DNA of 64,000 nucleotides. Origin: a virus. Taxonomy: Duplodnaviria; Caudoviricetes. The position numbers were made by a program, and so were the translations under genes. The notes beneath the pieces were generated by a model. It was not told where the DNA came from, ran no database searches, and was given only the letters and a program-made list of their open reading frames with translations. Positions within the stretch are counted from its first letter, which is position 1. The number at the start of each line of letters is the position of its first letter. Shown here one piece after another: positions 26,973-61,638 of the stretch. The DNA lies in the IMG/VR virus record IMGVR_UViG_3300028864_000017; one strand, given 5' to 3'.

Positions 26973-29900
26973 ATGATAAATCAACAAAACAGTTTTGTGT
27001 CTTTAGCTGAACAACTAGCTGTATTAAATAAGAATTCAGTAGAAGTTATGACAAAATTAAATGATGTTGTAGCTAGTAGAAATTCTGTTGTAAACGTTAA
27101 CTTAATGAATACAGATGGAACAACATCATCATATCAATTTCCAACAGTTGGTCAATTAAAAAATGAATTAGATATTGCAAATAGAAATATTCAGAAATTA
27201 GCAGGATTATCTGATAGTACAGCTTATGTATCAGATGGTACAACTATGAGAAGAATATATGTAGATGATTTGAATAGTGAGCCTAGTCCTATTGATAGTT
27301 TAGATAGTATAAAAAAATTCACATCTATAAACAATTCTTTTTTTGAATCTCTTTATAATCCTATGTTAGCGATAGAACTTGATTTAACTGATAGAATTGA
27401 TCAAAAAGTAAAAAAGGTATTATCACGTAGATATATAATAAAATTTCAGACAGATCAATATGGTAATTTAACATCAGATGGTTCAAATTCAAAATCAGAT
27501 TTTGAAACTAAATTCTTAAATAGAAATGATGTTTTTATTGATGATTTGACTTCATGGTACACAAATATAAAAAATACTGGTGTTTTTCATAGTAATCAAC
27601 CTTATGATGAGCAAGTATTTGACTTAGATTATGATAAACTTCAATATTATGGAATATTTGATGTGGTTGGTATTGATAATGATACAATTAATAGTAAAAT
27701 GTGGTATGTATTAGGATCGATAACTTATTATGATTATACAGGTAACACTAGACAATTATCAGTAGGAGATGAATTAATAATAAATAAAAAAGATTCATCA
27801 ACATTATGGACAATAAAGGAAGTTAGTACAGCTAAAAGTAATTATAGAGTTATTTTAGAGAGGTTGGAAGGGTTAGAACCTGTTCCAATACTATCACAAG
27901 GATTGAAGATTTATAGTCCTGTATTACCAGAAAAAACAATAAAAATATCTATTGGTTATGATGAATACAATGTAGTTTTTATCAAACCTATTAATACAGA
28001 TTCAAATGTCATTTCATCAACATGGTCTTATGGTACATCTTTTTATAGTAACAATTTAGTTTTAGATACAAATAGTACTGTTTCTATGACAAAATTCTAT
28101 AGTGATACTGTATTTGATTATGGTTCTATATTAAAAGATTTAATATCTAAAAATATACCTAGTAAATTTGGAATAACACCAAATGTACCAACTTTAGTAT
28201 CTAGTAATTTTAAAGTTTTACAAATAAATACACATTTAACTGATACAGCGGATTCAGCAAAAATTCAAAATTTAAATACTCAAAAAGTATCTATAAAATC
28301 ACAATTAGAACAATTAAGTGATGCTATAGTTGAACAGAATAAAGAACTTAGTACTAAGCAATACAAATCAACATCAGATAAGCAGGCAAGTCAAAATCAA
28401 TTAAATACTTTGATAAGTCAGCAATCATCATTAACTAAATCATACACATCGATAGTTAGTCAAATTACTGCTGAGAATACTGGTTCAATTTCAAGTGTAA
28501 CTGCAAAATTTAGGGTAAGAGGTTTTTGGAGTATTCCAGAACCTATTATAATTAATACAGTAGGAGAACAACAAAAACAAGAAGTTGTTCAGTTTATTGT
28601 TCAATATAGATATAAGGCTACAGGAGGTTCTGAGCCTACAACAGAAGGATTTAATTTAAATCTTACAGAAACTATATACACAAATTCTACATCTACTGGA
28701 GATATTACTGATCAAACTAAAGCATATCTTAATCCAAGTATAACAACTCAAAATGTTACTGAAACTGGATATTTTTCCAATTGGAATCAATATATGACAG
28801 ATGCAAGGACAAGAACTTATAATAGAGCTTTAGATGTTTGGACATGGGATGTTGAAAATGTTTCTGATGCAAATTCACCTAAAGTTAATCAATTAGACAT
28901 ATCTTTACATCCAAATGAAACAGTTGAAATTAAAATTAAATCTATATCAGAAGTTGGATTTCCAGACTCACTTATAGTATCTGATTGGTCTGACGTTATG
29001 ACAATTGATTTTCCAACTGATCTTTCTCAAGTAGGTAACGAAAATTCTACTATTTTACAATCTGCTCAAAATGAACAAATATATTCACAAATAGAAAGTG
29101 ATTTTAATGCAAAAGGATTAACAACGCATCTTCAGCAATCATATTATGTTAATGATTTATATGTTGCTCATACTGATGTAAATGTAGGCACATCATTTAA
29201 AGATAGCTCAGGTAATATAATTATGTTAAATGATTATTTAAAATTATTAACAGATAAAATAACTGCTCTTGAAGAAATTGTATCTAATGCAAAAGGAGAA
29301 CTTTCAATTAGTTTATATAAGAATTCAACAAATGTTACAATAGAAAATGGTGCATCTATAATTCAAAATATTACATGTGAAGATTATGCAGAATTATCTG
29401 GTACAACAACAAGAACATATTACAATAATATATATTCTTCTGATGATTTCTACATACAATTTGGAAATGTTTCACAATCTGCACAATTAGGATTACTTTC
29501 ATATAGAAAATATGTACCTACTGTTAATGGTGATAATAGATTTTATAATACACAATATTCAAATGGATCATTAGCAACTTATATTGATTCAGAAGATATG
29601 CTTAGAACACAAGTAGATAATCAATTTATTTGGATTTCTGATGTATCAGGAACAAATGCAATATATAATTCAGGAAAAACATATAATTCTAATGGATTAG
29701 GACAAGTTTTGTACTCTAAAAATTGGAATGTTGGATTAACTGGAACTACAACACCAAATTCAGGAGGTACTTATTCAACTCCAATAAATATATTTAATGA
29801 TGTTAATTGGACTGGAGTTACTTGGAGTGCTGACAATGATTATCAAACTGATTTTCCTGTTACGATACATCCACATATTGATAATATTTCAGATTATGTT

Positions 29901-30155
29901 TATTCTGATAAAAGTGGAGTTAAATTGATAAATTCTAATAGCAAATTTACATTACCTATTAAATTTTTATTTAAATTATCAGGAGGAACAAGTGATTCAA
30001 TATCATTTCCTACAAATTTATCTACATCTCCATCAGTTACAAAAAAACTCAGAATCTTTATTGAATCTGAAAGCTTAAATAGACCATTTGAATTTGAAAT
30101 AGTGTTTAAGATATTTAGAAACAGAACATCATCAGTAAGAAGTATTGGATCTTAA
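26973..30155 (+). CDS. large putative virion structural protein (coiled coil + FN3-like segment)
   Basis: S/T/N-rich beta composition, central coiled coil, VEIKIKSISEVG..SDWS FN3-like strand; TATATATA upstream. Confidence 0.65.
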   Translation: MINQQNSFVSLAEQLAVLNKNSVEVMTKLNDVVASRNSVVNVNLMNTDGTTSSYQFPTVGQLKNELDIANRNIQKLAGLSDSTAYVSDGTTMRRIYVDDLNSEPSPIDSLDSIKKFTSINNSFFESLYNPMLAIELDLTDRIDQKVKKVLSRRYIIKFQTDQYGNLTSDGSNSKSDFETKFLNRNDVFIDDLTSWYTNIKNTGVFHSNQPYDEQVFDLDYDKLQYYGIFDVVGIDNDTINSKMWYVLGSITYYDYTGNTRQLSVGDELIINKKDSSTLWTIKEVSTAKSNYRVILERLEGLEPVPILSQGLKIYSPVLPEKTIKISIGYDEYNVVFIKPINTDSNVISSTWSYGTSFYSNNLVLDTNSTVSMTKFYSDTVFDYGSILKDLISKNIPSKFGITPNVPTLVSSNFKVLQINTHLTDTADSAKIQNLNTQKVSIKSQLEQLSDAIVEQNKELSTKQYKSTSDKQASQNQLNTLISQQSSLTKSYTSIVSQITAENTGSISSVTAKFRVRGFWSIPEPIIINTVGEQQKQEVVQFIVQYRYKATGGSEPTTEGFNLNLTETIYTNSTSTGDITDQTKAYLNPSITTQNVTETGYFSNWNQYMTDARTRTYNRALDVWTWDVENVSDANSPKVNQLDISLHPNETVEIKIKSISEVGFPDSLIVSDWSDVMTIDFPTDLSQVGNENSTILQSAQNEQIYSQIESDFNAKGLTTHLQQSYYVNDLYVAHTDVNVGTSFKDSSGNIIMLNDYLKLLTDKITALEEIVSNAKGELSISLYKNSTNVTIENGASIIQNITCEDYAELSGTTTRTYYNNIYSSDDFYIQFGNVSQSAQLGLLSYRKYVPTVNGDNRFYNTQYSNGSLATYIDSEDMLRTQVDNQFIWISDVSGTNAIYNSGKTYNSNGLGQVLYSKNWNVGLTGTTTPNSGGTYSTPINIFNDVNWTGVTWSADNDYQTDFPVTIHPHIDNISDYVYSDKSGVKLINSNSKFTLPIKFLFKLSGGTSDSISFPTNLSTSPSVTKKLRIFIESESLNRPFEFEIVFKIFRNRTSSVRSIGS

Positions 30156-30176
30156 AAAATATAATAAAATATAATA

Positions 30177-33100
30177 ATGATAAATAACAGTTTTCAATTA
30201 TTAAGAACTAATCCCGCACTAACAACTAACATAAAATTAGTTGTTAGTTCTGATTATAAACTATACTTAGAATCATTTGATACTAATACTCAATTATCTA
30301 ATCAAAAATATAAACATTATTCAGTTGCTAAAAATAAACTATACGAAAATCAAATAGTTAATTATTATGATGGTTTGTCATCACAATTAGCATTTGATGT
30401 TAAATATGATTCTGATGTTACTAATGTATTCACTAAATATAATCAACAATTCGATGATATTTATTGGAGTGGAGCAAAATCAGTAGAAGATAATTGGTAT
30501 AATGAAGATTTTGAGTATTTAGCACCTTTATTTATAAGAAAAGAAAATTTACCAGATGGTTTTATTATTTTAAGAGTCGATGGCGCTGCACCTTATGAAA
30601 ATGAAGATGACGATTTAGGTTCAAGTAAATTAAATAAAGATAACTTTCATACTCAAATAGTTGATAAATGGAAATGTGTATCTGTAATTGATATGAGGTA
30701 TAATACTGATTTTGGGTTATTTTTATATACTAATTTCACAAACAATGCATCATTTCCAGAAAGATCATTTGATTTAGATTTTAGACAATATGAGTATTCT
30801 AAATTTTATGGAATTGATTATAATAATGGTAGTTATGTAAACAAATCGAATTTTTTACAATCAATACTAAAATATGAACAGCCACATTTTAAGCTTGAAC
30901 ATGAAATCATTAAATCTTTTGAAAATAATAATTTAATATTTCCGCATATTTTAAATCTGAAGTTTTTATTTGATGATGTTCCTGCTAATCCAGTTAATAT
31001 AAATAATTATTCTATAAATAGATATTATGGTTTTTACGCTGATAAATTAGAATTAGTAACAAATTTAACATCATATATTACTCCTGAACTAAAAAGTGGA
31101 TTTACATTAAAAAATAATATCTTCGGATATATGTCAGGTGATAAATTTGTAGAAAGTAATGAATCTCCTTTTATTGAAGGATTTTTTTTAGATAAAACCT
31201 ATTGGATTCAACTTACAAATTCAGATTATGATAATGAATTTTATAACGTCATAAGAGTAAATAATAATGGAAAAAATACATATAGAATTGTCAGTGATAT
31301 AGATTTGAGTGGATATACATTCAATGTTTCTAATGATAGAACTTGTTACATTAATTATACTAACGGATTTAATTATAATTGTAAAATTATTAATAATCCT
31401 TCTGGTATAACTAATCATATATCTGGATATACATCAAATTTTAATATTGATCCATATTATTCAGGAGAAACAACAGAATCAATGTATGGAGATTTATATC
31501 TAATACAAATAGACGGGATTTATCATGTATTAAAGAATAAAAATGGAGCTTATTTTATACAAAGTGATTATGCAATAAATTCATATTCAACAGGTTTAGA
31601 ATATTGGAAAGGTGGAAAAGATAGTATATATTATACCAAGAAAGAAATATATAAATATGGAAATAAACCAATAGTTTATCCTGTTTATAGAATAAAATTC
31701 AGCGACATTAAAGATTTTGATTTTAATAGGGTAAATTCTCATTTTGCAGATTTCGATTATGAGAAAGATACATATACGTCAACAGATGAACAAAAATTAT
31801 ATGCTGTTGATTATACTGATACATCATCATTAACTAAAAAAAATATGACTCATTCAAGAGGAGAAGATGGACAATACCAAGTAATGAATGTTTCATCTGA
31901 ATATGTTTCAGATGATGAACTTTATGAAATATCATTTAACAATTTAACTGAAATATGGAGAAAAAATCCATCAGTAGTAAAATGGGGATTTGCTGGATCA
32001 AATTCTAATTGTGATTATCCTTATAAATTAAACAATTCAATTAATATTGGAGATACTTTTAATTCTACTTGTAATGTGTTTAGTTTAATGCCAACTGAGG
32101 TAGAAAAAAACTTAGACTATTTTTATAGAATAGGAAATTTTTTCTCAGGAACTACTGATAATATTGTAAAATATTTAAATCAAACTACTAATATTGAAGT
32201 TGATTTTATGGAAATTTATAGTAAAAAATTTAACTTAGAATTATATTTAAATTCTGATATTGACTATTTTGATTATTTTTTCAAAAATAAGTCAAATTTC
32301 ACTATTGATGATATTGATTATGTTAAACAAACATTAAAATATTCTACTTTTCAATCTGGTGATAACTATACTGCATCCAATACATTATTTAAAGGATTAA
32401 ATATTAATGCGTTAAATGTATCAAATGTATCAAGAGATATCAACGGAAGAATAATAAACATAGTTGCTGATAATAGTAAAAATTTCAATAATTATAAATT
32501 TTCAATTATTCTAAATGATGTTTATGAATATTATGTTGATGGATCATATGATTCAACTTATGAAAACGGATTATCTAATAATAAAGTAATAGATAAAACA
32601 TCAAATTCCATCCATGTTATTTTAAATGAAAAATTTAAGAATTTTTTAATAGTTATTAATGTTAAAATTCCAATACAAAAAAAATATGTAAATATAAATA
32701 ATGTTGCTATTTTTGGAGAAAAATTTGGATTATATAATTCTAAAACATTAGATGGACATAGTTTATCATATCCTGCAACCAATGTTAATGATTTTGATTC
32801 ATCTTTAATTGTAGCTTCTAATATATTTGATGCATTTGATGATATGAATACATTATCTGAATTTGATTCTGGTATAACATACTACTATGTTAATTCAATT
32901 GGACAATCTGGATATACACATCCAATGAATATCACAGGAGGTACAATGAAAAATGTATCAGATTGGACTAAAAATTATCCACCTTTTATTTTTACATTTA
33001 ATGATCCAAAATTATTAGAAACAAATCAAAACTCTTATATTAAAAGTTCAATAAAAGGACCATCAGTTAATATTTATGATAAATATCAAATTTATTATGA

Positions 33101-33614
33101 CAATAATAAAAAACAAAAATATAATGTAACAGATCCTTTAGCAAGATCAATGTATCTAAATAATAATGAAACTATAATGAATACATCAAATGGAGTATCA
33201 TCAACGAATTCAATATATAGATATAACGGATCATACGAACCAATATTCAATAATGTGTCAATATTTAATAATGTATCTTTATATTTATCTGGTGATACTA
33301 TAAAATCATGGAATTCAAATTATAAATTTGATACAACATATGAAAATTTTGGAAGAATAGAAGAGTTGATGTATTCAAAAATAAATCCTATATCATCGCC
33401 ATTAAAATTGAAAAATACTGATACTGATTTATCAATTTACCCAATGGTGGATGAATTCGGTTATGAGTTCAGTTCAAGATTTATATTTAATTCATCTTGG
33501 GATAAAGATTTTTATGTTATTACTAATAGTGATCAAAATATGAATAATAATATATTTTCTAATTATTCTCATGTGGAATATATAATAGATCCTATAAAAA
33601 CTATAAATGATTAA
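30177..33614 (+). CDS. large putative virion structural protein
   Basis: 1145 aa, N/Y/S/T-rich, cotranscribed with 26973. Confidence 0.6.
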   Translation: MINNSFQLLRTNPALTTNIKLVVSSDYKLYLESFDTNTQLSNQKYKHYSVAKNKLYENQIVNYYDGLSSQLAFDVKYDSDVTNVFTKYNQQFDDIYWSGAKSVEDNWYNEDFEYLAPLFIRKENLPDGFIILRVDGAAPYENEDDDLGSSKLNKDNFHTQIVDKWKCVSVIDMRYNTDFGLFLYTNFTNNASFPERSFDLDFRQYEYSKFYGIDYNNGSYVNKSNFLQSILKYEQPHFKLEHEIIKSFENNNLIFPHILNLKFLFDDVPANPVNINNYSINRYYGFYADKLELVTNLTSYITPELKSGFTLKNNIFGYMSGDKFVESNESPFIEGFFLDKTYWIQLTNSDYDNEFYNVIRVNNNGKNTYRIVSDIDLSGYTFNVSNDRTCYINYTNGFNYNCKIINNPSGITNHISGYTSNFNIDPYYSGETTESMYGDLYLIQIDGIYHVLKNKNGAYFIQSDYAINSYSTGLEYWKGGKDSIYYTKKEIYKYGNKPIVYPVYRIKFSDIKDFDFNRVNSHFADFDYEKDTYTSTDEQKLYAVDYTDTSSLTKKNMTHSRGEDGQYQVMNVSSEYVSDDELYEISFNNLTEIWRKNPSVVKWGFAGSNSNCDYPYKLNNSINIGDTFNSTCNVFSLMPTEVEKNLDYFYRIGNFFSGTTDNIVKYLNQTTNIEVDFMEIYSKKFNLELYLNSDIDYFDYFFKNKSNFTIDDIDYVKQTLKYSTFQSGDNYTASNTLFKGLNINALNVSNVSRDINGRIINIVADNSKNFNNYKFSIILNDVYEYYVDGSYDSTYENGLSNNKVIDKTSNSIHVILNEKFKNFLIVINVKIPIQKKYVNINNVAIFGEKFGLYNSKTLDGHSLSYPATNVNDFDSSLIVASNIFDAFDDMNTLSEFDSGITYYYVNSIGQSGYTHPMNITGGTMKNVSDWTKNYPPFIFTFNDPKLLETNQNSYIKSSIKGPSVNIYDKYQIYYDNNKKQKYNVTDPLARSMYLNNNETIMNTSNGVSSTNSIYRYNGSYEPIFNNVSIFNNVSLYLSGDTIKSWNSNYKFDTTYENFGRIEELMYSKINPISSPLKLKNTDTDLSIYPMVDEFGYEFSSRFIFNSSWDKDFYVITNSDQNMNNNIFSNYSHVEYIIDPIKTIND

Positions 33615-46156: not shown

Positions 46157-46166
46157 TATAAATATA

Positions 46167-48352: not shown

Positions 48353-50359
48353 ATGAGTGAATGGATATTGGAATATGAAAATGGTGGAAACATAAGAAAA
48401 AAACTAAATGACTTAAAATATACAGTTGATTCAATTGTTGAATCTGGAAGAACATCTACATCAGGAACAGATGGTACAACAGGTATCTCAGGAACAGATG
48501 GAACATCAGGAACATCAGGTAGTTCTGGAACATCAGGAACATCAGGTAGCTCAGGAACATCAGGTTCATCAGGTAGCTCAGGAACATCAGGAAGCTCTGG
48601 CTCATCAGGAACATCAGGTTCATCAGGAAGCTCTGGCTCATCAGGAACTTCAGGTACAGATGGAACATCAGGAAGCTCAGGAACATCAGGAAGCTCTGGT
48701 TCATCAGGTAGCTCAGGATCGTCAGGTACAGATGGAACATCAGGTTCATCAGGTAGCTCAGGATCGTCAGGTACAGATGGAACATCAGGTAGCTCAGGTT
48801 CATCAGGTAGCTCAGGAACATCAGGCACAGATGGTACATCAGGTACATCAGGAAGCTCTGGCTCATCAGGTAGTTCTGGTAGTTCAGGAACATCAGGCAC
48901 AGATGGTACATCAGGCACAGGCTTTGATACAGTAACTAATTACTCAAATAATAGAATATTAAAATCTGATGGTACTACAAACGGCGCATATGCTGATAGT
49001 GGATTAACATATAATGGATTAACATTAGAAGTAAATGGAGGAATTAATTCAACTGAAAATATAATATCAAAAGGAAGCATAATTTCTGCTATTGTATCAG
49101 TAACAGGAGGTACATCAAATCAATTTTTAAAAGCAGATGGTTCTATTGATTCAACATCATATTCTAATACTAATCATAATCATTATCAATTATATCAACC
49201 TAATGGATTAAATCCTTTTGTATATACTGATAACGGAGGATCATTTCATATTGATGGAAATATTATACAGTCAGGAACAACTTATGAAACTCATTCTGAA
49301 CAAATATTTACAACGAAAGATTATATAATATTAAGAAGTGGAGCAACAACAGGATTATCAGAAGGTGAATATACTGGATTTGAATCTGTAAAATATGATG
49401 GATTGAGTAATGGTAGATTAGTTTTTGATAATCATGGTATAGCTAGAGTAGGAGATATTGGATATGAACAACCTCTATCTACAAGAGAAGAAATTCCAAC
49501 AGATAATTATTTGGCTATTTGGAACTCTGGCAAAACAAGATTTGAATCTATAAATCCAATAGATTTACCTGTTTCAACACAGACTATAAATTTAATTAGT
49601 GATGAGACTATTAGTAGAATAAGCGGAGATACTATATTAACTAATTTAATAAGTGATGAAACATTCAATAGACTGTCTGGTGATACTTCATTAACAAGCA
49701 TAATAAGTGATGAAACATCTAATAGAATAAGCGGATATACATCATTAAATAATTTAATAAGTGATGAAACATTCAATAGAATAAGCGGATATACATATTT
49801 AAACAATTTAATTACAGGAGAAACATTTAATAGAATTTCTGGTGAAACATCATTAACAAACTTAATAAGCGATGAGACTATTGACAGAATAAGTGGAGAT
49901 ACACAATTGAATAACTTAATTACAGGAATAACACAAAATATTATTAATTATATTCCTTATACTGGTTCAACTTCAAATGTTGATTTAGGTAATAATAATA
50001 TTTCAGCCAGTTTATTTATTAAATCAGGAGGAACATCATCTCAATTCTTAAAAGCTAACGGTACGGTAGATAGTAATTATTATATAAATGCAACAATAAT
50101 AAATACAATATCTATATTAATTTTAAATTGGTCTAGTTCTGTAAATGCGAACGGTTTTTATTATTATACAATATCAGATACAAATGTATCAATAACATCA
50201 TGGATAGATGCAGTATTTTCAAATTTGAACTCATCTGATGTTTCAAGTTCTGGAATACAACCATCTATAACAACAGCATCAGGAAGTTTTATAATAGAAT
50301 CAACTTCTGTACCAAAAACTGATTTAACATTAACATACAAAATAATAGGAGGAATATAA
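48353..50359 (+). CDS. tail-fibre-like protein with Ser/Thr-Gly repeat block and 18-aa helical repeats
   Basis: about 155 aa of (S/T/D)G(S/T); GGTS.QFLKA(D/N)G twice; six LISDET.NRISGDT.L.N units. Confidence 0.75.
   Translation: MSEWILEYENGGNIRKKLNDLKYTVDSIVESGRTSTSGTDGTTGISGTDGTSGTSGSSGTSGTSGSSGTSGSSGSSGTSGSSGSSGTSGSSGSSGSSGTSGTDGTSGSSGTSGSSGSSGSSGSSGTDGTSGSSGSSGSSGTDGTSGSSGSSGSSGTSGTDGTSGTSGSSGSSGSSGSSGTSGTDGTSGTGFDTVTNYSNNRILKSDGTTNGAYADSGLTYNGLTLEVNGGINSTENIISKGSIISAIVSVTGGTSNQFLKADGSIDSTSYSNTNHNHYQLYQPNGLNPFVYTDNGGSFHIDGNIIQSGTTYETHSEQIFTTKDYIILRSGATTGLSEGEYTGFESVKYDGLSNGRLVFDNHGIARVGDIGYEQPLSTREEIPTDNYLAIWNSGKTRFESINPIDLPVSTQTINLISDETISRISGDTILTNLISDETFNRLSGDTSLTSIISDETSNRISGYTSLNNLISDETFNRISGYTYLNNLITGETFNRISGETSLTNLISDETIDRISGDTQLNNLITGITQNIINYIPYTGSTSNVDLGNNNISASLFIKSGGTSSQFLKANGTVDSNYYINATIINTISILILNWSSSVNANGFYYYTISDTNVSITSWIDAVFSNLNSSDVSSSGIQPSITTASGSFIIESTSVPKTDLTLTYKIIGGI
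48456..48920 (+). repeat. 9-bp-period repeat encoding SG(T/S) tripeptides
   Basis: tcaggaaca / tcaggtagc / tctggctca units. Confidence 0.95.
49592..49927 (+). repeat. six 54-bp tandem repeats (18 aa)
   Basis: tta-at..gt-gatga.ac in register at 49592, 49862 and 49916. Confidence 0.9.
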
Positions 50360-54450: not shown

Positions 54451-56916
54451 ATGAAAATATTGATAATTTTGCCACATGCCAGTACTGGCGGACTTCCTTC
54501 TGTGTCATTAAAAAGAGTAGAATCTTTAATAAATACAAATGATGTCTATGTAATTGAATATAGACAAATCTCTTGGAGTTTTGTAGTACAAAGGAATAGA
54601 CTGATTGAATTATTAGGAGATAAATTCATTTCACTTGGAGGAATGGAAGATGAAACAAAACGTGATTTTTTTCAAGAAATAATTAATACTATTAATCCTG
54701 ATATTGTTCATATGGAAGAAATACCAGAATTATTTATTTTTGGAATGAGAAATGATCATGTGAGTTGGTTATATAGAGATGATAGACCATATAAAATAAT
54801 AGAAACAACTCACACTTCAACTTTTGATATTAATAAAAAAATATACTTTCCAGATAAGTTTTTATTTGTATCTAAATATTCACAACTACAATATAGTAAA
54901 TTTGACATACCATCTTCTGTTGTTGAATATCCAGTAGAAAAATTAGCATGTAATAACGGATTAGCAATTGATGTATTGAAATTTGATCCTGAGTATTTTC
55001 ATGTTTTGAATGTTGGATTATTTACATCAGGAAAAAATCAAGGATATGTTTTTGATATAGCAGAAAAATTGATAGATTATAAAATACAATTTCATTTTGT
55101 AGGCAATCAAGCAGAGAATTTTTCTGATTATTGGAGTCCATTATTAAATAAAAAACCAGCCAATTGTATAATTCATGGAGAAAGAAGTGATGTTGATTTA
55201 TTTTATCAAGCATCTGATTTACTAATTCATTCATCTTTACTAGAACTTAATCCATTAGCTATCAAAGAAGCAACATCGTATGATTTGCCTGTTTATTTAA
55301 ACAATCTTAATACATATTTAGATACATATGATTTATATAAAAACATTAAATATTTGACAATGAATGTTGATAAAGATTCTAAAAGAATATTAGATAATTT
55401 CAATATAAAAAGATTAGATGATAATATAACATTTCAAGATATATTATTAAAAGAGTATAATAATACTCTTTATATAAATAAAACAACTCAAAGAATAGTA
55501 GAACCACAATATGATTATAATATTGATTTCATTAAAGGAGCAAAGGTAGAAATTGTTGGTGATTCTCCATCTGAATTTTATGTTGAAATATTAGATAAAA
55601 ATACAAATGAAATTATATACAAAAAAATGTTAAACAACAATAATTGGTGTCGTACTAATTATGAATGTTATAAAGAATACAAAATTAACATATTTAAAAA
55701 TAATAAATTAGTAATTACTCATGATTTTGATTTAACTAATAAAAATGTATTGATAACATTAGAAAGCAAATCAATAGGAGATACATTGGCATGGTTTCCA
55801 TATATTGAAGAATTTAGAAAAAAGCATAATTGTAAAGTTCAGTGCTCAACATTTTGGAATAGTTGGTTCATAAATCAATATTCAGAAATAACTTTTGTTG
55901 AACCAGGACAAGAAAACACTGAAAATTTGTATGCAAAATATAAAATAGGTTGGTATTCTCCATATGACAACAATAGAAATCCTATTGATTATAAAACTAT
56001 TCCTTTGCAAAAAACAGCAAGTGATATACTTGGATTAGAATACGAAGAAATTATACCAAAAATTGAAATTCCTGAAGGAATTAGACCAATCAAAGAGAAA
56101 TATGTTTGCATTGGTCAATTCTCAACAGCTAACTCTAAGCACTGGCATTATCCTTGCAAAGATAGCAATAAAGGCTGGCAAATTTTAGTTGATTGGTTTA
56201 ATACACAAGGATATAAAGTTATGGTAATAAGTAAACAACCAACCAATCTTAAAAATATAATAGATAGAACTGGAAATTTTCCTATTGAACACAGAATCAA
56301 TGAATTAAAATGGTCTGAATTTTATATTGGTATTGGATCAGGATTAAGTTGGTTGGCATGGGCTGTTGGTAAGCAAGTAGTAATGATGTCAGGGTTTTCT
56401 AAACCTTTTTGCGAATTTAAAACTAATAACATAAACATACATAATTTTAAAGTGTGTAATGGATGTTTTAATACACACAAATTTGATCCAGGAGATTGGA
56501 ATTGGTGTCCGATAAATAAAAATACTGATAAGCAATTTGAATGCTCTACTAGCATAACACCAGAAATGATAACTGATAGAATAATAGAGTCAAAATTAAT
56601 TGAAAATCCAAAGAAATTTGATTTTAAAAAATATGATGTTAAATATAACTTAGATAAAAACAATATAAATATAACGTATGATAAAAATGAAAATAAATTG
56701 ATGTTATATTATAATGGAGAAGATATGCAAGCATTAAATATTGATATTAAAGATTTAAAATCAAACAAAATATATTATACTTTATCTGAAACATCATTAA
56801 ATAAAAATAGTGTGATTTGGTGCATACCAAAAATAAATTTAGCTGAAGATACAAATAAGTTGAATATAGTATTTTATGAAAAAAATAAAATATTAGAAAT
56901 ACAATATGGAATTTAA
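54451..56916 (+). CDS. two-domain glycosyltransferase: GT4-like N-terminus + TibC/AAH-like protein O-heptosyltransferase domain
   Basis: N: STGGLP, NVGLFTSGKNQ, SDLLIHSSLLELNPLAIKEA; C: SKSIGDTLAWFPY..EF..KH, FYIGIGSGLSWLAWA, CxxC-x13-C-x11-C. Confidence 0.85.
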   Translation: MKILIILPHASTGGLPSVSLKRVESLINTNDVYVIEYRQISWSFVVQRNRLIELLGDKFISLGGMEDETKRDFFQEIINTINPDIVHMEEIPELFIFGMRNDHVSWLYRDDRPYKIIETTHTSTFDINKKIYFPDKFLFVSKYSQLQYSKFDIPSSVVEYPVEKLACNNGLAIDVLKFDPEYFHVLNVGLFTSGKNQGYVFDIAEKLIDYKIQFHFVGNQAENFSDYWSPLLNKKPANCIIHGERSDVDLFYQASDLLIHSSLLELNPLAIKEATSYDLPVYLNNLNTYLDTYDLYKNIKYLTMNVDKDSKRILDNFNIKRLDDNITFQDILLKEYNNTLYINKTTQRIVEPQYDYNIDFIKGAKVEIVGDSPSEFYVEILDKNTNEIIYKKMLNNNNWCRTNYECYKEYKINIFKNNKLVITHDFDLTNKNVLITLESKSIGDTLAWFPYIEEFRKKHNCKVQCSTFWNSWFINQYSEITFVEPGQENTENLYAKYKIGWYSPYDNNRNPIDYKTIPLQKTASDILGLEYEEIIPKIEIPEGIRPIKEKYVCIGQFSTANSKHWHYPCKDSNKGWQILVDWFNTQGYKVMVISKQPTNLKNIIDRTGNFPIEHRINELKWSEFYIGIGSGLSWLAWAVGKQVVMMSGFSKPFCEFKTNNINIHNFKVCNGCFNTHKFDPGDWNWCPINKNTDKQFECSTSITPEMITDRIIESKLIENPKKFDFKKYDVKYNLDKNNINITYDKNENKLMLYYNGEDMQALNIDIKDLKSNKIYYTLSETSLNKNSVIWCIPKINLAEDTNKLNIVFYEKNKILEIQYGI

Positions 56917-56930: not shown

Positions 56931-56951
56931 CGAAAAGAAAAATCGTTATAT

Positions 56952-58991
56952 ATGAGTTATATTAAAATTAAAAAAATACTTAAAGATGATGTTGAAACTC
57001 CAGAGAAAGGTTATATTTATTTTGGATATGAAGATACAACAGTAAGTAGTGGAAGTACTAAAGGATTTTGGATAAAAGATGATGATGGTAGTGAAGCATC
57101 ATATATATTGGAAGGATATTCAAATGCCCCAATTATTTCAGATTTTGATCCTACAAGTGCATATAATGGTGATTTGATAACAATATATGGAATAAATTTT
57201 GTTAAAAATACAGTTGCATCTTTTAGCGGAATAACAGGAGTAACAACATTAGTTTCTCCTAATCAATTAAATGTTGTAATACCTGATCTTACTAATTATG
57301 ACAATGAAGTTGAAGTGGTATTAAAATCTCCATTAGCGACAGGTCCATCAGCAAAATATAAAGTATTTAAACAAAATAATAAACCTATAATAACAATAAG
57401 TCCTACTAGCGCAGATATAAATTCTACTATAACAATAGAAGGATTATATTTCATACCTGGAAAAACAGAGTTATTTTTTGTACCAGTAACTCATGCAATT
57501 ACTACTGTTATTAGTTCAACAAAATTAACTGCTATAGTACCATTATTAACACTTGGTCTTACTCAATTATATCTTCAAACAGATCTTGGATTGATAAATC
57601 CTGGACAAAGTTTATTTGCAAACATAATAATTAACAATGGAACAATTCCTTTATTTGAAAGTTTTTATCCATCATCTGCAAGTCAAGGTGGATATGTAGA
57701 TATATTTGGAGCAAATTTTGATGTCTCAACTACATTAGTTCATATTGGTCCTACTCAATCATCAAAAATAACTTTTATAGATTCTGGACATATAAGAGCA
57801 GATATTTCAAATGATACTCCTATTGGAGATACAATAATTAGAGTTGATGAAATATCAAAATCTGGATTTACAGTTTATGGATCTACTAGTACTCTAATTC
57901 CAACTATAACAAATATAAATCCATCAGTTTATCCAGGTAATACAGTAATTCTAACAGGAACTAATTTAAATGTTCCTTTGACTATTACATTTAGTGGAGT
58001 TATATGTAAATCAACACCTATAAATTTCAATTCTTGTTCGATTTATATAGGAACTGATGTTACGCCAGGTATAAATAGCGTTATAGTAATTAACAAATAC
58101 GGATCATCATTACCATATTCATATAATTTACTAACAATTGGAAATTTATCATTAAGTAGTTTTAGTTCTACACATATGAAAAGAGGACAGCATTCAATAG
58201 GTGTATATGGCACTGGATTTATAAACAGTCCATCAATGAGTGTTTATGTAGGAAATGTATTATCAAGGTTTTCATATAATAGTCCAACAGCATTAACAGT
58301 CCAGATATTAAATTCTACATCAACTAATGACACAATACCAACTGGTAATGTTGATATTAGAGTAGAAAGTATAAACGGTAATTATACATTAAATGGTTTC
58401 ACTGTTGATACAACAAATCAACCTATAATATCAAAAATAAGTCCTATATTTGGAAAATATGGTGATTCTATTGATATATATGGTAGTCTATTATCAGGAG
58501 GACTTATTAGTTTTGGAACATCTTATCCAGGTACTTATGGTGTAACATCTACAATAGATAATAGTCATTTAAAAGTAATTGTACCATCTGGACTAACAAC
58601 TTCAGGTATGAATGAAATAATGAATGTTTATGCAACAACATCTAATGGTTCTATAACATATTCACCGTTTGAATCTTATATACAAGCGACATCAGCTCCA
58701 TCTATTTTAAGTTTTACTCCAATGGATGTCACAGGATCTACTTCATCAAAAGGAACATTAATTACCATATCAGGACAAAATTTTTCTAAATATTATACTG
58801 ACGCTTACATTAGTATAGCGCCATCTGGTAATCTTAAATATATATATTTAGATTCACAAGAATATATATCTGACACAGAAATAAGAGGTATTATTCCTAA
58901 AACGTTAGGATATATTGGCTCATCAATTATTAAAGTTGTAACATCTGCAGGTGTTGATCAAGAAGCGAATTTATATATATCAAAACTATAA
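56952..58991 (+). CDS. IPT/TIG (Ig-like) repeat protein, probable virion decoration/fibre
   Basis: about 7 repeats of P.I..(F/I).P..A..G..(I/V)TI.G.NF. Confidence 0.85.
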   Translation: MSYIKIKKILKDDVETPEKGYIYFGYEDTTVSSGSTKGFWIKDDDGSEASYILEGYSNAPIISDFDPTSAYNGDLITIYGINFVKNTVASFSGITGVTTLVSPNQLNVVIPDLTNYDNEVEVVLKSPLATGPSAKYKVFKQNNKPIITISPTSADINSTITIEGLYFIPGKTELFFVPVTHAITTVISSTKLTAIVPLLTLGLTQLYLQTDLGLINPGQSLFANIIINNGTIPLFESFYPSSASQGGYVDIFGANFDVSTTLVHIGPTQSSKITFIDSGHIRADISNDTPIGDTIIRVDEISKSGFTVYGSTSTLIPTITNINPSVYPGNTVILTGTNLNVPLTITFSGVICKSTPINFNSCSIYIGTDVTPGINSVIVINKYGSSLPYSYNLLTIGNLSLSSFSSTHMKRGQHSIGVYGTGFINSPSMSVYVGNVLSRFSYNSPTALTVQILNSTSTNDTIPTGNVDIRVESINGNYTLNGFTVDTTNQPIISKISPIFGKYGDSIDIYGSLLSGGLISFGTSYPGTYGVTSTIDNSHLKVIVPSGLTTSGMNEIMNVYATTSNGSITYSPFESYIQATSAPSILSFTPMDVTGSTSSKGTLITISGQNFSKYYTDAYISIAPSGNLKYIYLDSQEYISDTEIRGIIPKTLGYIGSSIIKVVTSAGVDQEANLYISKL

Positions 58992-59010
58992 TAAAAATAT
59001 AAAATAATTA

Positions 59011-59050: not shown

Positions 59051-59079
59051 TAAACATATTAATATTTTTTACATACAAT
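59051..59079 (+). promoter_or_regulatory. putative phage promoter TAAACA-N17-TACAAT
   Basis: exact 17-nt spacer upstream of the three-GT operon. Confidence 0.55.
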
Positions 59080-59101
59080 AAATAAATAAATAGAAATAAT
59101 A

Positions 59102-60013
59102 ATGAAAATATTAGTAGCAACTTTTGATCATAATTATTATTTGTGGCAAGTACTTGTACAGATAAATAATTTTATGAAATATGGATATGATAATGATACA
59201 ATTTATGTAGTATCAACTTCAAATCCTAGTCCAATTTTAAAATCATTAATGAATAATGAAAAAATAAAATCTAAATTCTTCATTTATAACGATGAAAGAG
59301 TAAATCCAAAATATCCATCATCATTAAGACCTCACATATTAGAAAAATTATTCATTGAACATCCTGAATATAATAATGAAACATTTTTTTATTGTGATCC
59401 AGATATGATTTTCACAAAAAAATTAGATTTCACGGATATGGTGAATGATAATAAATGGCATTTGAGTGATACTAGGTCTTATATTGATACCATGTATATA
59501 AAAAGTAAGAGTGAACAATTGTTTAATGAAATGTGTGAAATATCTAAAGTAAAACCAGAAGATATTGTAGCAATTGATAATAATGCAGGAGGAGCACAAT
59601 ATTTAATGAAAGGAATAAATTCTGATTATTGGAAAAAGGTGTATGATGATAGTGAAAATTTATATTCTCATATGAAAAACACAGAAAGTATATATAATCC
59701 TGAACATCCTATTCAATCATGGACATCTGATATGTGGGCAGTTTTATGGAATGCCGTTTATTATAATCATGAAGTCGAGATTAATAAAGATTTAGAATTT
59801 AGTTGGGCTACTGATAATATAAAAAGATGGGACGAAACTTATATTTTTCACAATGCTGGAATAGTAGGCAAAAGTGATACACATTTTAGCAAAATTGAAT
59901 ATCAAGTTTCTCCATTCAATAAAGAAATAAAAGTTGATAATGATAATTGTACATATAATTATGTGAAAGAAATAAAAGAAACAGAAGAAAATTTTAAAGA
60001 TATAATCTGGTAA
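59102..60013 (+). CDS. GT-A glycosyltransferase resembling peptide O-glycosyltransferases (GT95 HPAT / GT96 SGT1-like)
   Basis: YPSSLRPHIL, FFYCDPDMIF (DxD), GGAQY, WTSDMWA. Confidence 0.6.
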   Translation: MKILVATFDHNYYLWQVLVQINNFMKYGYDNDTIYVVSTSNPSPILKSLMNNEKIKSKFFIYNDERVNPKYPSSLRPHILEKLFIEHPEYNNETFFYCDPDMIFTKKLDFTDMVNDNKWHLSDTRSYIDTMYIKSKSEQLFNEMCEISKVKPEDIVAIDNNAGGAQYLMKGINSDYWKKVYDDSENLYSHMKNTESIYNPEHPIQSWTSDMWAVLWNAVYYNHEVEINKDLEFSWATDNIKRWDETYIFHNAGIVGKSDTHFSKIEYQVSPFNKEIKVDNDNCTYNYVKEIKETEENFKDIIW

Positions 60014-60028
60014 AAAATAAAAAATTAA

Positions 60029-60784
60029 ATGAATATAGGAATAGTTGTATTAGCTACAAATGCTTATTTTGTGTTAGGAATAAGATTTATTAAAAGATTT
60101 ATGAATTTTTACAAAGGTGATAAAAACATCACCTTCTATTTTTTCTCGGATAATAATCCAAAAAATTATATACCTGATAATATTGATGTTGAATATTTTC
60201 ATGTGACTAATAATAATTGGGTAGATGGAACAAACTTAAAATTTACATCTATATTATCAATTAAAGATAAATTAAAAAGTGATTATCTATTTTATTTTGA
60301 TGCTGATACTAATGTAAATAAAGATTTTATTGAAGATTGGTTTATTGGAGATTTAGTTGGTGGTCAGCATTATGGAGATCAAGATTGGATGAAAAATGAA
60401 AAATCATTTGATAGAAATCCATCATCAAAAGCATATGTACCATTTGATACTAAATTATCACAAATGTATTTTTATGGTGCATTTTTTGGAGGTAATTCTA
60501 ACAATATGATAAATTTTTGTGAAACTATGAGATATTATCAATTAGAAGATAAAAAAATACCTTATGAGCCTGGTGTGAATGATGAAAGTTATATCAATAG
60601 ATATTTTCATTTTAATCCACCTACAAAAGTAGTATTATGTCCAGATTTTTCATTTGTAATTAGTGATAAAGGTGGTATTGGTGAAACTAGAGATATAAAT
60701 TTGAATATCGAAGAACTCAAAAAAGAATTATTAATAAATAAAAATAACTCTATTGATATACAGAGTAATAAATTAATTTTATGA
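60029..60784 (+). CDS. GT6-family (ABO/alpha-1,3-Gal(NAc)-type) glycosyltransferase
   Basis: IGIVVLATNAY..F..RF..FY, YFFSD, YLFYFDAD, YFYGAFFGG, NDESYINRYF. Confidence 0.85.
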   Translation: MNIGIVVLATNAYFVLGIRFIKRFMNFYKGDKNITFYFFSDNNPKNYIPDNIDVEYFHVTNNNWVDGTNLKFTSILSIKDKLKSDYLFYFDADTNVNKDFIEDWFIGDLVGGQHYGDQDWMKNEKSFDRNPSSKAYVPFDTKLSQMYFYGAFFGGNSNNMINFCETMRYYQLEDKKIPYEPGVNDESYINRYFHFNPPTKVVLCPDFSFVISDKGGIGETRDINLNIEELKKELLINKNNSIDIQSNKLIL

Positions 60785-61638
60785 TAAAAATATATTCAAT
60801 TCATTATATTAAGCCAGAATTTGTTGAGTTACAATATCATCAATTCAAAAAAAATTGTAATGATGAATATGAACTAATAATTGTAAATAATGCATTTGAT
60901 GATAACACAAAAAATAGTATTATTGATATTTGTAAAAAATTTAATATAAATAGCATTAAAATAACTGATAATAATAGTGAAAAATTTACATCACAATCTC
61001 ATTTTTTTGCATTAGAATATATTTTACAAAATTACATAAAAATAGATGATACTAATAATATAAGTGTTATTTTAGATTGCGATGTTTTTCCTTTTAAAAA
61101 ATTTAGTTTTATTGATATATTAAATGGTAAAAAAATTTGTGGATTATATCAACAAAGAAATATTAATAATACATCATATGAATATTTATCTGCAATATTT
61201 ACAATATTTCATAATGATATAGATTTATCTAATTTCACTTTTAATGGAATTGCGGATACTGGATCTGGAACAAATATATTAATGAAAAAATATAGCACAG
61301 AGTTAGTTATACACACAGCAGCAATAGATATTGAATCCGATTATATATTTACTAATAATAAATTGGAATATCCATATAAACAAGAATATAGATGTCAATT
61401 TATAAGTAATGAATTCATACACTATTATAGAGGTTCAAATTGGTCAGAATCTGATGAGAATTATCACAATAAAAAAAATTTATTTTTGTTAAATTTTATA
61501 AATAATTATAATATTTACAAATTAAATTTAGATGATGTTGTATTATATGATACTGCTCATAGTGACAAAGGACTTAACGGAGTTGATCACAATTATAATA
61601 ATTACAGATATATCGAAAAAATGAAAAATGAAAAATGA
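60781..61638 (+). CDS. GT-A fold glycosyltransferase-like protein
   Basis: YELIIVNN, SHFFALE, VILDCDVFP (DxD), DTG, FIHYYRGSNW. Confidence 0.65.
   Translation: MIKIYSIHYIKPEFVELQYHQFKKNCNDEYELIIVNNAFDDNTKNSIIDICKKFNINSIKITDNNSEKFTSQSHFFALEYILQNYIKIDDTNNISVILDCDVFPFKKFSFIDILNGKKICGLYQQRNINNTSYEYLSAIFTIFHNDIDLSNFTFNGIADTGSGTNILMKKYSTELVIHTAAIDIESDYIFTNNKLEYPYKQEYRCQFISNEFIHYYRGSNWSESDENYHNKKNLFLLNFINNYNIYKLNLDDVVLYDTAHSDKGLNGVDHNYNNYRYIEKMKNEK

What the first reader, a model, noticed from the sequence alone, without database searches (positions are those of the whole stretch)
26973..61638. Candidate virion O-glycosylation system: an [S/T]-G-x-T sequon scattered through structural proteins next to phage-encoded protein glycosyltransferases
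Seen (hand counts): [S/T]-G-x-T occurs about 55 times in eight unrelated structural-type ORFs totalling about 5,350 aa. By ORF start: 26973 x7, 30177 x10 (of its 14 [ST]G sites), 42819 x5, 45383 x2, 46167 x4, 47055 x6, 48353 x16 (outside the SG block) and 56952 x6. Examples are SGYT, SGIT, SGTT, TGVT, SGFT and SGDT. I found 0 matches at about 32 [ST]G sites in about 4,500 aa of enzymes (Top2, NadE-like, UvsW, PolB, ThyA, Dam, two GTs). The proteins have different folds, so shared ancestry does not explain the motif. The same region encodes TibC/AAH-like, GT95/96-like, GT6 and GT-A enzymes, the first two resembling enzymes that glycosylate Ser/Thr or Hyp of proteins. Inference: the phage writes its own modification sequon into exposed virion proteins and builds a glycan coat, perhaps for shielding, adhesion or host-glycan mimicry.
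Basis: partly seen in the sequence, partly recalled or inferred. Interest (0 to 1): 0.88.

Follow-up and report, generated by a model that had tools for sequence, protein, structure and literature searches.

The report
Lineage-specific [S/T]-G-x-T tag on megaphage fibres
A huge uncultured phage and its close relatives carry about eight times more copies of the four-residue motif Ser/Thr-Gly-x-Thr in their outer tail and fibre proteins than chance predicts, next to a true relative of a bacterial adhesin-glycosylating enzyme, so the motif is probably a sugar-attachment tag, though no experiment shows this.

Summary
SGxT and TGxT are the two most enriched of all 8,000 a-b-x-c patterns. The motif is strict: the reverse motif, [ST]GxS, non-S/T-GxT and [ST][A/N/D]xT all sit at expectation.

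It is not a property of the folds. Orthologues in the sister megaphages LR756502, LR745206, LR756504, LR756500, Lak-A1 and pT24 are at baseline. LR756501 and 120 metagenomic homologues keep 7-13 copies each, at shifting positions.

ORF 54451 is a GT4-like module fused to a true TibC/Aah (BAHT) O-heptosyltransferase domain, with all catalytic and iron-finger residues intact. It lies among the motif-rich genes in three diverged lineages, and relatives encode GmhA or RfaE-II.

The link between enzyme and motif is only circumstantial. TibC homologues occur without the motif, and the phyletic match is confounded by ancestry.

This scan has reported similar Ser/Thr-Gly excesses and TibC-plus-collagen-fibre pairings on other phage DNA. 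My verdict is a real, selected short linear motif, most likely an O-glycosylation sequon (about 45%).

The parts
26973..30155 (+). 1,060-aa conserved megaphage protein (phrog_29329) carrying the motif
   Evidence: It has 7 [ST]GxT against 1.08 expected. Orthologues: G001 6/0.90 and LR756501 4/1.07, but LR756502 2/0.60 and LR756504 0/0.37.
30177..33614 (+). 1,145-aa conserved megaphage protein, the strongest motif carrier; probably baseplate or outer tail
   Evidence: It has 10 against 0.50 expected, and 10 of its 14 [ST]G sites carry the motif. Its 120 homologues hold 930 motifs against 82 expected. Orthologues in LR756502, LR745206, LR756504, LR756500, Lak-A1 and pT24 have 0-3 against 0.5-1.4. 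In the model, most motifs sit at loop-to-strand junctions. No fold match was found in the PDB. The pT24 homologue lies next to portal and DNA-end-protector genes.
42819..45308 (-). 829-aa protein carrying the motif
   Evidence: It has 5 against 0.54 expected. Orthologues: LR756501 4/0.32, LR756502 1/0.41, LR756504 0/0.40.
45383..46156 (+). 257-aa protein, paralogue of 46122
   Evidence: It has 2 against 0.19 expected. It is 39% identical to 46122. The LR756501 homologue has 7/0.42.
46122..47036 (+). 304-aa paralogue carrying the motif
   Evidence: It has 4 against 0.37 expected.
47055..48308 (+). 417-aa clade-specific protein with an internal duplication (SGFTLxIxxFD[RK]NI occurs twice)
   Evidence: It has 6 against 0.38 expected. 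The G001 homologue has 8/0.45.
48353..50359 (+). Collagen-like fibre: a proline-free (G-[TS]-[SD])n block at aa 35-190, then a fibre shaft with 18-residue repeats
   Evidence: Pfam Collagen at E = 1e-21 and PHROG tail-fibre families. It has 16 motifs against 1.4 expected outside the collagen block. The sequence is shown.
54451..56916 (+). Two-module glycosyltransferase: a GT1/GT4-like module (aa 1-350) fused to a TibC/Aah-type O-heptosyltransferase domain (aa 355-711)
   Evidence: Pfam Glycos_transf_1 at aa 176-291. TIGR04414 scores 307 bits against a cut-off of 200. PDB 4RB4/4RAP match at E = 6e-57, with D110, T226, K230, R286, W305 and Cys339/342/358/370 equivalents kept. Both modules are present in G001, G007 and LR756501, neither is in LR756502, and only TibC is in LR756504 and Mel-JY01.
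56952..58991 (+). 679-aa IPT/TIG-repeat protein (Ig-like adhesin or fibre) carrying the motif
   Evidence: Pfam TIG, three stretches, at E = 5e-23. It has 6 against 1.6 expected. The G001 homologue has 11/1.69.
59102..60013 (+). GT-A-fold protein, a structural relative of the hydroxyproline O-arabinosyltransferase (HPAT/GT95) family
   Evidence: Atlas structure matches to HPAT-bearing clusters at TM 0.75-0.77. No Pfam or NCBIfam hit. Absent from LR756501 by tblastn.
60029..60784 (+). GT6-family glycosyltransferase
   Evidence: Pfam Glyco_transf_6 at 67 bits against a cut-off of 25. NCBIfam Gltr_6 at 90 bits, below its cut-off of 250.
60781..61638 (+). Probable GT2-like (GT-A) glycosyltransferase
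   Evidence: Language-model neighbours at 0.97-0.99 are viral GT2 clusters. No HMM hit.
16977..18200 (+).
   Evidence: Present in G001 (94%), G002 (75%), G003 (53%) and LR756501 (55%). Absent from LR756502, LR745206, LR756504 and the other phage records. The model has pLDDT 85, and its nearest folds are GlgM, MshA, BshA, PimB and WaaG.

Best explanation
[S/T]-G-x-T is a short linear motif that selection maintains on the outer virion proteins of one megaphage lineage: the window's clade plus LR756501-like phages. These proteins are of baseplate, fibre and adhesin type.

It sits mostly where a loop (S/T-G) runs into a beta-strand that starts at the Thr. Its number per protein is held at about 5-13 while individual sites come and go, as with glycan-shield sequons of animal viruses.

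The most likely function is an acceptor site for cytoplasmic O-glycosylation before or during assembly. The phage's own enzymes would do this, centred on the GT4-like/TibC-like fusion 54451. That enzyme would add heptose from ADP-heptose to the Ser/Thr, or modify the neighbouring collagen-like G-[TS]-S block. Further glycosyltransferases (16977, 59102, 60029, 60781) would start or extend glycans.

Shown:
- the motif, its specificity and its restriction to this lineage;
- its turnover with a maintained number;
- the family membership of the TibC domain;
- the gene neighbourhood.

Inferred:
- that the motif is modified at all;
- which residue is modified and which enzyme does it;
- that the carrier proteins are in the virion.
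For: (1) Enrichment and specificity. The count is 40 against 4.7 (z = 17). The reverse motif (4 vs 4.7), [ST]GxS (6 vs 5.4), non-S/T-GxT (24 vs 18) and [ST][A/N/D]xT are all at expectation. A generic turn preference would tolerate Asn or Asp in place of Gly and Ser in place of Thr.

(2) Not required by the fold. Four window families have 26 motifs and their LR756501 orthologues 27. Their LR756502 orthologues have 7 and LR756504 orthologues 2, each against about 2.5 expected. Genome-wide, after masking collagen repeats, proteins with p < 1e-3 number 6 (window), 8 (G001), 18 (LR756501) and 15 (G002 plus G007), against 0 in both LR756502 and LR756504.

(3) Selection on the number. The 120 homologues of 30177 carry 930 motifs against 82 expected. 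In a 47-sequence alignment, 51 different columns host a motif and 26 of those are used by only one or two sequences. Motif Thr is kept in 71% of sequences against 44% for other Thr, and motif S/T in 72% against 56%. The x position is kept in only 15%, against a mean of 61%.

(4) Enzyme identity. 54451 is a true BAHT-family member with all catalytic, sugar-binding and iron-finger residues. TibC heptosylates Ser313 in the sequence N-S-G-G of TibA (PMC4358343). NCBI names the family 'strand-loop-strand O-heptosyltransferase', which matches the predicted structural context of the motif.

(5) Neighbourhood. The GT4 and TibC genes lie among motif-rich genes in three lineages that are only 49-82% identical in these modules. 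In G001 the fusion is at 123-126 kb, between motif-rich genes at 121-123 and 130-135 kb. In G007 it is at 147.6-150.1 kb, between 143-145 and 154-159 kb. In LR756501 the two modules are at 580-586 kb, between 568-571 and 586-588 kb.

(6) Donor supply. G001 encodes GmhA and G007 encodes RfaE domain II.

(7) Controls. The phi92 structural module shows only 22 against 12.7. Known sequons (D[ST][AILVMT], NxS/T, SGxG) are not enriched.
Against: - There is no biochemical evidence.
- TibC homologues exist without the motif: LR756504 (93 vs 81 genome-wide), Mel-JY01 (42 vs 41), and about 70 IMG/VR loci with 40-48% identical TibC and unenriched flanks. TibC alone is therefore not sufficient, and it may instead serve the collagen-like G-T/S-S repeats.
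- In TibA only Ser is heptosylated, not Thr. Here position 1 is Thr in 32-44% of copies.
- The phyletic match of 16977 and of the GT4 module with the motif reflects one or two events on the tree. Another 73 genes share the pattern.
- 16977 is a generic GT4 fold with no feature specific to protein substrates.
- 59102 is missing from motif-positive LR756501, and 60781 is not found in either G001 or LR756501.
- The 30177 model is only moderately confident (pLDDT 66), and no coordinates were available to measure exposure.
Confidence: 0.45

Rival explanations
1. The motif is a lineage-specific structural or folding element. A tight S/T-G turn followed by a beta-branched Thr would nucleate beta-hairpins or beta-arches. 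It spread in this clade's beta-rich fibre proteins for stability or assembly, or as the docking site of a clade-specific fibre chaperone. No covalent modification is involved.
For: In the 30177 model the motif lies at loop-to-strand junctions. Two clear two-residue hairpin turns are seen at 429-432 and 1038-1041. Gly in the motif is no better conserved than other Gly (0.71 vs 0.72). Motifs often arise on pre-existing Gly turns, for example PGLK or PGLT in relatives against SGFT here. Thr is a better strand former than Ser, which could explain the Thr-only position 4. A weak hydrophobic preference at -1 fits a strand end.
Against: Orthologous proteins in six related phages do without the motif. 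Sites turn over fast while the number is kept. Asn and Asp do not substitute for Gly and the reverse motif is absent, which is unlike general turn statistics. The fibre-rich structural module of phi92 shows only 1.7-fold.
Confidence: 0.27
2. The motif is a recognition site for another activity that is not glycosylation. Examples are Ser/Thr phosphorylation, ADP-ribosylation or another small adduct, proteolytic maturation, or a ligand-binding (receptor or metal) site repeated on host-recognition proteins.
For: The motif behaves as a short linear recognition motif. The set of genes shared only by motif-positive genomes also includes an ADP-ribosylglycohydrolase, ATP-grasp enzymes and radical SAM enzymes. 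None of the glycosyltransferases is tied to the motif by anything but context.
Against: No kinase or protease with the right phyletic pattern was found among the 20 best candidates. Hydroxyl residues flanking Gly, next to a cluster of four or five glycosyltransferases that includes a protein O-glycosyltransferase, point more simply to glycosylation.
Confidence: 0.15
3. The enrichment is a by-product of internal repeats, collagen-like periodicity or amino-acid composition, and has no function of its own.
For: About half of the copies in 48353 come from an 18-residue tandem repeat. In LR756502 the two apparently enriched proteins are collagen-like GATGSTGSQ repeats, where TGxT arises from the Gly-X-Y period.
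Against: Excluding 48353 still leaves 40 against 4.7. Masking collagen repeats leaves 59 against 9.9 in the window and 335 against 105 in LR756501. The contexts of the copies are unrelated, and per-protein shuffles control for composition.
Confidence: 0.03

Closest known systems
Bacterial autotransporter heptosyltransferases TibC/Aah acting on TibA and AIDA-I (BAHT family; TIGR04414; PDB 4RAP/4RB4; PMC4358343)
   Same: The domain at aa 355-711 of 54451 is a sequence member of this family, with the catalytic base, four sugar-binding residues and four iron-finger cysteines. As in TibA, the presumed acceptors are beta-rich surface adhesin-like proteins with many sites at strand-loop-strand positions. 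A known TibA site is Ser in N-S-G-G. The reaction is cytoplasmic, and ADP-heptose pathway genes are present in relatives.
   Different: The host is a phage, and there is no autotransporter. The enzyme is fused to a GT4-like module, and its thumb hairpin is about 9 residues shorter. TibC Pro300, the stereoselectivity determinant, is Gly here. The candidate acceptor motif needs Thr at +3 and accepts Thr at position 1, whereas only Ser was modified in TibA. TibC homologues in other phages are not accompanied by the motif.
Mycobacteriophage virion glycosylation (Che8, Rita; Freeman et al. 2023, Cell Host Microbe 31:1216, cited in PMC11256854)
   Same: Phage-encoded glycosyltransferases put O-linked glycans on the phage's own virion proteins and form a glycan shield.
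   Different: In those phages the capsid (and, from my own knowledge, the tail tube) is modified, and no tetrapeptide sequon is described. The hosts are Actinobacteria and the enzymes are not BAHT-type. Here capsid-type proteins are not enriched: the rest of LR756501 shows 105 against 74.
N-glycan sequon (N-x-S/T) shields of enveloped animal viruses (general knowledge)
   Same: A minimal three-position motif whose number per protein is maintained while positions drift, with a hypervariable x position.
   Different: The chemistry, compartment and enzymes differ. The analogy is evolutionary only.
Earlier notes of this scan on other phage DNA: Ser/Thr-Gly or [ST]-G-S excess on outer tail proteins, and TibC-type enzymes beside proline-free Gly-Thr-Ser collagen-like fibres
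   Same: The same theme recurs here: an S/T-G-based motif on fibre and baseplate proteins, a TibC-type enzyme, and a proline-free G-[TS]-S collagen block (48353).
   Different: Here the motif is sharper: Thr is obligatory at +3, and [ST]GxS and [ST]G without Thr are not enriched. The enrichment is 8-fold rather than 2-3-fold. Sister genomes with orthologous proteins provide natural negative controls.

Membership tests
BAHT (TibC/Aah) O-heptosyltransferases, TIGR04414 | Profile score above the curated equivalog cut-off | tested here: met
   307.2 bits against a cut-off of 200, over aa 355-711 and profile positions 11-371 of 374. PDB 4RB4/4RAP match at E = 6e-57.
BAHT (TibC/Aah) O-heptosyltransferases, TIGR04414 | Catalytic base Asp110 and sugar-binding residues Thr226, Lys230, Arg286 and Trp305 (PMC4358343) | tested here: met
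   All five are aligned to identical residues in the HMMER alignment to 4RB4. That chain itself carries Ala at position 110, where the phage protein has Asp.
BAHT (TibC/Aah) O-heptosyltransferases, TIGR04414 | Iron-finger Cys339, Cys342, Cys358 and Cys370 | tested here: met
   All four Cys are aligned.
BAHT (TibC/Aah) O-heptosyltransferases, TIGR04414 | Beta-hairpin thumb that builds the dodecameric ring | tested here: inconclusive
   The alignment shows a gap of about 9 residues in the thumb region, TibC 259-275. The oligomeric state was not modelled.
BAHT (TibC/Aah) O-heptosyltransferases, TIGR04414 | Acceptor is the beta-helical passenger domain of a self-associating autotransporter | tested here: not met
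   No autotransporter is encoded in the window. The candidate acceptors are phage fibre and baseplate proteins, so the enzyme works like a BAHT but on other substrates.
BAHT (TibC/Aah) O-heptosyltransferases, TIGR04414 | Transfers heptose from ADP-heptose to Ser | not testable with these tools
   Indirect support only: GmhA in G001 (207.6 bits against a cut-off of 209) and RfaE domain II in G007 (202 bits, above its cut-off).
Collagen triple-helix repeat proteins (PF01391) | Gly-X-Y repeats scoring above the Pfam threshold | tested here: met
   48353 scores 76.7 bits against a cut-off of 27.2. The block is proline-free, G-[TS]-[SD].
Bacteroidota general O-glycosylation sequon D-[ST]-[AILVMT] | Enrichment of that sequon in the candidate glycoproteins | tested here: not met
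   28 against 22.0, z = 1.4.
N-x-S/T sequon (OST or cytoplasmic NGT/HMW1C type) | Enrichment of N-x-S/T | tested here: not met
   88 against 83.3, z = 0.6.
GT6 glycosyltransferases | Pfam PF03414 above the gathering score | tested here: met
   60029 scores 67.2 bits against a cut-off of 25. The NCBIfam subfamily model is below its cut-off, 90 against 250.
HPAT / GT95 hydroxyproline O-arabinosyltransferases | Sequence or structure membership for 59102 | tested here: inconclusive
   No HMM hit. Atlas structure matches reach TM 0.75-0.77 to clusters carrying PF23452.
Mycobacteriophage-type virion glycosylation | Glycans on the major capsid and tail tube proteins | not tested
   Capsid and tube genes were not identified in the window. 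Proteins outside the enriched set of LR756501 are near expectation.

The most novel reading that the evidence does not exclude
[S/T]-G-x-T is a true sequon for cytoplasmic O-glycosylation of phage tail, fibre and baseplate proteins. It is written by a phage GT4-BAHT enzyme, with further phage glycosyltransferases extending the glycan. It evolves like the glycan shields of animal viruses: the number is kept while positions drift. It was gained, or later lost, together with the enzymes within the megaphage radiation. That would be the first defined O-glycosylation sequon of a tailed-phage virion, and a programmable tag for cytoplasmic protein glycosylation.
Probability: 0.35. Interest if true: 0.85.

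Novelty: new variant of a known kind. Interest (0 to 1): 0.72.

Why it matters
Virion glycosylation is established for tailed phages only in a few mycobacteriophages, and no sequon is known there.

Here a sharply defined tetrapeptide marks the host-recognition apparatus of an abundant group of 0.6-0.7 Mb environmental phages. Orthologous proteins in sister phages lack it, which provides built-in negative controls. A true protein O-heptosyltransferase sits in the same gene cluster.

If the link holds, three things follow:
- a new layer of phage-host and phage-environment interaction, such as shielding of fibres, adhesion or protease resistance;
- an explanation for why TibC-type enzymes are common in phages;
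- a short portable tag plus enzyme pair for cytoplasmic O-glycosylation in glyco-engineering.

If the motif is not a modification site, it is still an unusually clean case of a lineage-specific, number-selected short linear motif in phage structural proteins, and that needs an explanation.

Tried and rejected
- **DNA-level motif:** rejected, because the codons are heterogeneous.
- **Composition, repeat or collagen artefact:** rejected by per-protein shuffles, by excluding 48353 and by masking (G..)x4 blocks. The artefact does explain the two 'enriched' proteins of LR756502.
- **Generic property of tail fibres:** phi92 shows only 1.7-fold, and pT24, Lak-A1 and LR756500 show none.
- **Shared cryptic domain:** all-against-all BLAST found only the 45383/46122 paralogy.
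- **TibC presence as predictor of the motif:** fails in LR756504, in Mel-JY01 and in 70 IMG/VR loci.
- **GT 16977 as the unique phyletic correlate:** its pattern is perfect in 11 genomes. However, 73 genes share the pattern, its fold is generic GT4, and its distant relatives in phi92-like phages are not accompanied by the motif.
- **Known sequons:** not enriched.
- **Fold identification of 30177:** no PDB match.
- **Whole genome of the window:** not held, and no near-identical phage record exists.
- **The 26973 homologue in other TibC-bearing contigs:** not found in the two contigs that could be searched; three others are not held.
- **The NAR 2026 DNA-glycosylation paper:** it does not mention the phi92 or rV5 glycosyltransferase relatives.
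- **The TALE hits of 59102:** a repeat artefact; no stretch passes on its own.

Full report
**What the window is.** The window has 22-30% G+C and is tightly packed with ORFs. It encodes a single-chain type II topoisomerase, a UvsW-like helicase, PolB, NadE and many orphan genes. Its large proteins find 35-42% identical homologues in the 0.63-0.74 Mb 'uncultured phage' genomes LR756501-LR756504 and LR745206. More distant homologues occur in the Lak Prevotella megaphages and in Tenacibaculum phage pT24. IMG/VR holds relatives at 91%, 79%, 67% and 45% identity. The window is therefore a piece of a megaphage, probably of a Bacteroidota host. No whole genome is held for it.

**The observation.**
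- Shuffling each protein gives 9.0 +/- 2.9 expected. Without 48353 the count is 40 against 4.7.
- The remaining 14,294 aa of the window have 3 against 3.7 expected.
- In an unbiased scan of all 8,000 a-b-x-c patterns, SGxT (p = 5e-18) and TGxT (p = 8e-8) are the two top patterns. The next best has p of about 4e-4.
- Codons at the motif are mixed, so the signal is in the protein.
- The motif is strict and directional: [ST]GxT has z = 17. The reverse T-x-G-[ST], [ST]GxS, non-S/T-GxT, [ST]Gx-nonT and [ST][A/N/D]xT are all at expectation.
- Flanking positions show only a weak hydrophobic preference at -1, in 427 copies from four genomes.
- Two caveats apply. 45383 and 46122 are paralogues. About half of the copies in 48353 belong to an 18-residue tandem repeat.

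**It is not a property of the folds.** I stitched together whole records and masked collagen-like (G..)n blocks. The number of proteins enriched at p < 1e-3 is then:
- 6 in the window;
- 8 in its 91% relative G001 (330 kb);
- 15 in the G002 plus G007 contigs (660 kb);
- 18 in LR756501;
- 0 in both LR756502 and LR756504.

The two apparent hits in LR756502 are GATGSTGSQ collagen repeats. Orthologue by orthologue the contrast holds. The four window families that have orthologues everywhere carry 26 motifs here and 27 in LR756501. They carry 7 in LR756502 and 2 in LR756504, each against about 2.5 expected. The 30177 orthologues of LR745206, LR756500, Lak-A1 (read with TAG as sense) and pT24 have 0-1. 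The fibre-rich structural module of phi92 shows only 22 against 12.7.

**Selection acts on the number of sites.** The 120 metagenomic homologues of 30177 (38-79% identity) hold 930 motifs against 82 expected, with a median ratio of 14. Sites are conserved among relatives above 65% identity, but distant homologues carry their own sets. In a 47-sequence alignment, 51 columns host a motif and 26 of those are used by only one or two sequences. Motif Thr is retained in 71% of sequences against 44% for other Thr, and motif S/T in 72% against 56%. The x position is retained in only 15%, against a protein mean of 61%. This is the behaviour expected of a short linear recognition motif in fast-evolving surface segments.

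**Structural context.** An AlphaFold2 model of 30177 has mean pLDDT 66 and pTM 0.67. It places Gly in coil in 7 of 10 motifs and Thr in a strand in 7 of 10. Clean two-residue hairpin turns occur at 429-432 and 1038-1041. No coordinates were available to me, so exposure could not be measured. No PDB fold match was found. Virion membership is inferred from three things:
- domain types: collagen-like with tail-fibre PHROGs for 48353, and IPT/TIG for 56952;
- position beside a BspA-type LRR protein;
- for the 30177 family, a pT24 homologue next to portal and DNA-end-protector genes.

**The enzymes.** ORF 54451 is a fusion of two modules. Residues 176-291 match Glycos_transf_1. Residues 355-711 are a true TibC/Aah domain:
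- TIGR04414 scores 307 bits against a cut-off of 200.
- PDB 4RB4/4RAP match at E = 6e-57.
- The catalytic Asp110, Thr226, Lys230, Arg286, Trp305 and the four iron-finger cysteines are all aligned to identical residues.
- The thumb hairpin is shorter, and TibC Pro300 is Gly here.

The residue roles come from PMC4358343. That paper maps TibA heptose to Ser313 in N-S-G-G and to Ser322, and finds no Thr modified.

The other glycosyltransferases are as follows. 59102 is a GT-A protein structurally close to HPAT/GT95 clusters. 60029 is GT6. 60781 looks GT2-like. G001 encodes GmhA and G007 encodes RfaE domain II, both steps of ADP-heptose synthesis.

**How well are enzymes and motif linked?** In favour:
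- The GT4 module and the TibC domain are both present in every motif-positive genome that could be examined: G001 at 82% and 86%, G007 at 71% and 68%, and LR756501 at 49% and 50% (there on separate genes 4 kb apart).
- LR756502 has neither module. LR756504 and Mel-JY01 have TibC only.
- In all three motif-positive lineages these genes lie among motif-rich genes.
- 16977 shows the same phyletic pattern.

Against:
- TibC homologues occur without the motif in LR756504, in Microcystis phage Mel-JY01 and in about 70 IMG/VR loci.
- The tree of the 26973 family puts LR756502, LR745206 and LR756504 in one clade and leaves the motif-positive lineages unresolved. The pattern therefore equals one gain, or one gain plus one loss.
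- Another 73 genes share the pattern, among them a GT2, an ADP-ribosylglycohydrolase, and radical SAM and ATP-grasp enzymes.

A reasonable split of roles is that the TibC domain serves the proline-free G-[TS]-S collagen block of 48353, while the motif is read by the fusion as a whole or by another glycosyltransferase. Such blocks also abound in LR756501 and Mel-JY01. This split is conjecture.

**Comparison with what is known.** Phage virion glycosylation is documented for the mycobacteriophages Che8 and Rita (Freeman et al. 2023, cited in PMC11256854), without a sequon and with unrelated enzymes. BAHT enzymes are known only on autotransporters. Known bacterial sequons are not enriched here. 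Earlier notes of this scan reported Ser/Thr-Gly or [ST]-G-S excesses, and TibC-plus-collagen-fibre pairings, in other phages. The present case agrees with that theme. It adds a sharper motif, because Thr at +3 is obligatory and [ST]GxS is not enriched. It also adds an 8-fold effect and orthologue-level negative controls.

**Verdict.** I put about 45% on an O-glycosylation sequon, 27% on a purely structural or assembly motif, 15% on another modification or binding site, and 3% on an artefact.

Noticed in passing
L261:4572-7013 (G002 284572-287013); homologue in LR756501 near 19.6 kb: An 813-aa megaphage protein with Pfam MVP_shoulder, Vault_3 and Band_7 domains, so it is like a major vault protein. 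It is shared by G002 and LR756501 (50% identity) and absent from LR756502 and LR756504.
   Followed up: no
L041:14267-14851 (G001), L244 (LR756504 430182-430640), L246 (G007 47815-48228): Megaphages that carry TibC encode single steps of ADP-heptose synthesis. These are GmhA in G001 and LR756504, and RfaE domain II in G007. No complete pathway was seen.
   Followed up: partly
window 7168-10446 (+): A single-chain type II topoisomerase of 1,092 aa (HATPase_c, DNA_gyraseB, Toprim, TOPRIM_C and TopoIV-A). This differs from the split T4 arrangement.
   Followed up: no
window 14805-16004 (-): A phage-encoded OmpA-like protein with an outer-membrane beta-barrel domain plus an OmpA C-terminal domain.
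   Followed up: no
window 11069-14703 (-): A head-to-tail run of eight ORFs of 93-172 aa on the minus strand. Their mutual similarity was not tested; several window ORFs hit the same stretch of G001.
   Followed up: no
window 52568-54340 (+); L029:2664-3851 (G001): NAD metabolism genes. A glutamine-dependent NAD synthetase (CN_hydrolase plus NAD_synthase) lies directly upstream of the TibC fusion, and G001 encodes a NAPRTase.
   Followed up: no
P0187 versus P0185 (homologues of 30177): P0187 has 0 [ST]GxT against 0.92 expected, while its 54%-identical relative P0185 has 7. All seven sites are replaced in P0187. This may be an independent loss of the motif, but the contig is only 9 kb.
   Followed up: partly
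L241 (Lak-A1 239605-280474): Coding density under table 11 is 0.40 and rises to 0.93 when TAG is read as sense. This fits stop-codon reassignment in Lak phages. The window itself reads normally under table 11.
   Followed up: partly
window 59102-60013, aa 139-168: One 30-residue stretch gives summed phmmer hits to every TALE repeat protein in the PDB, although no single stretch passes. This is an artefact of repeat summation and not a TALE relative.
   Followed up: partly
window 20644-64000: Earlier readers of this scan noted a shared C-terminal K-F/Y-N-L/I-stop tag on many small proteins of this stretch. I did not examine it.
   Followed up: no
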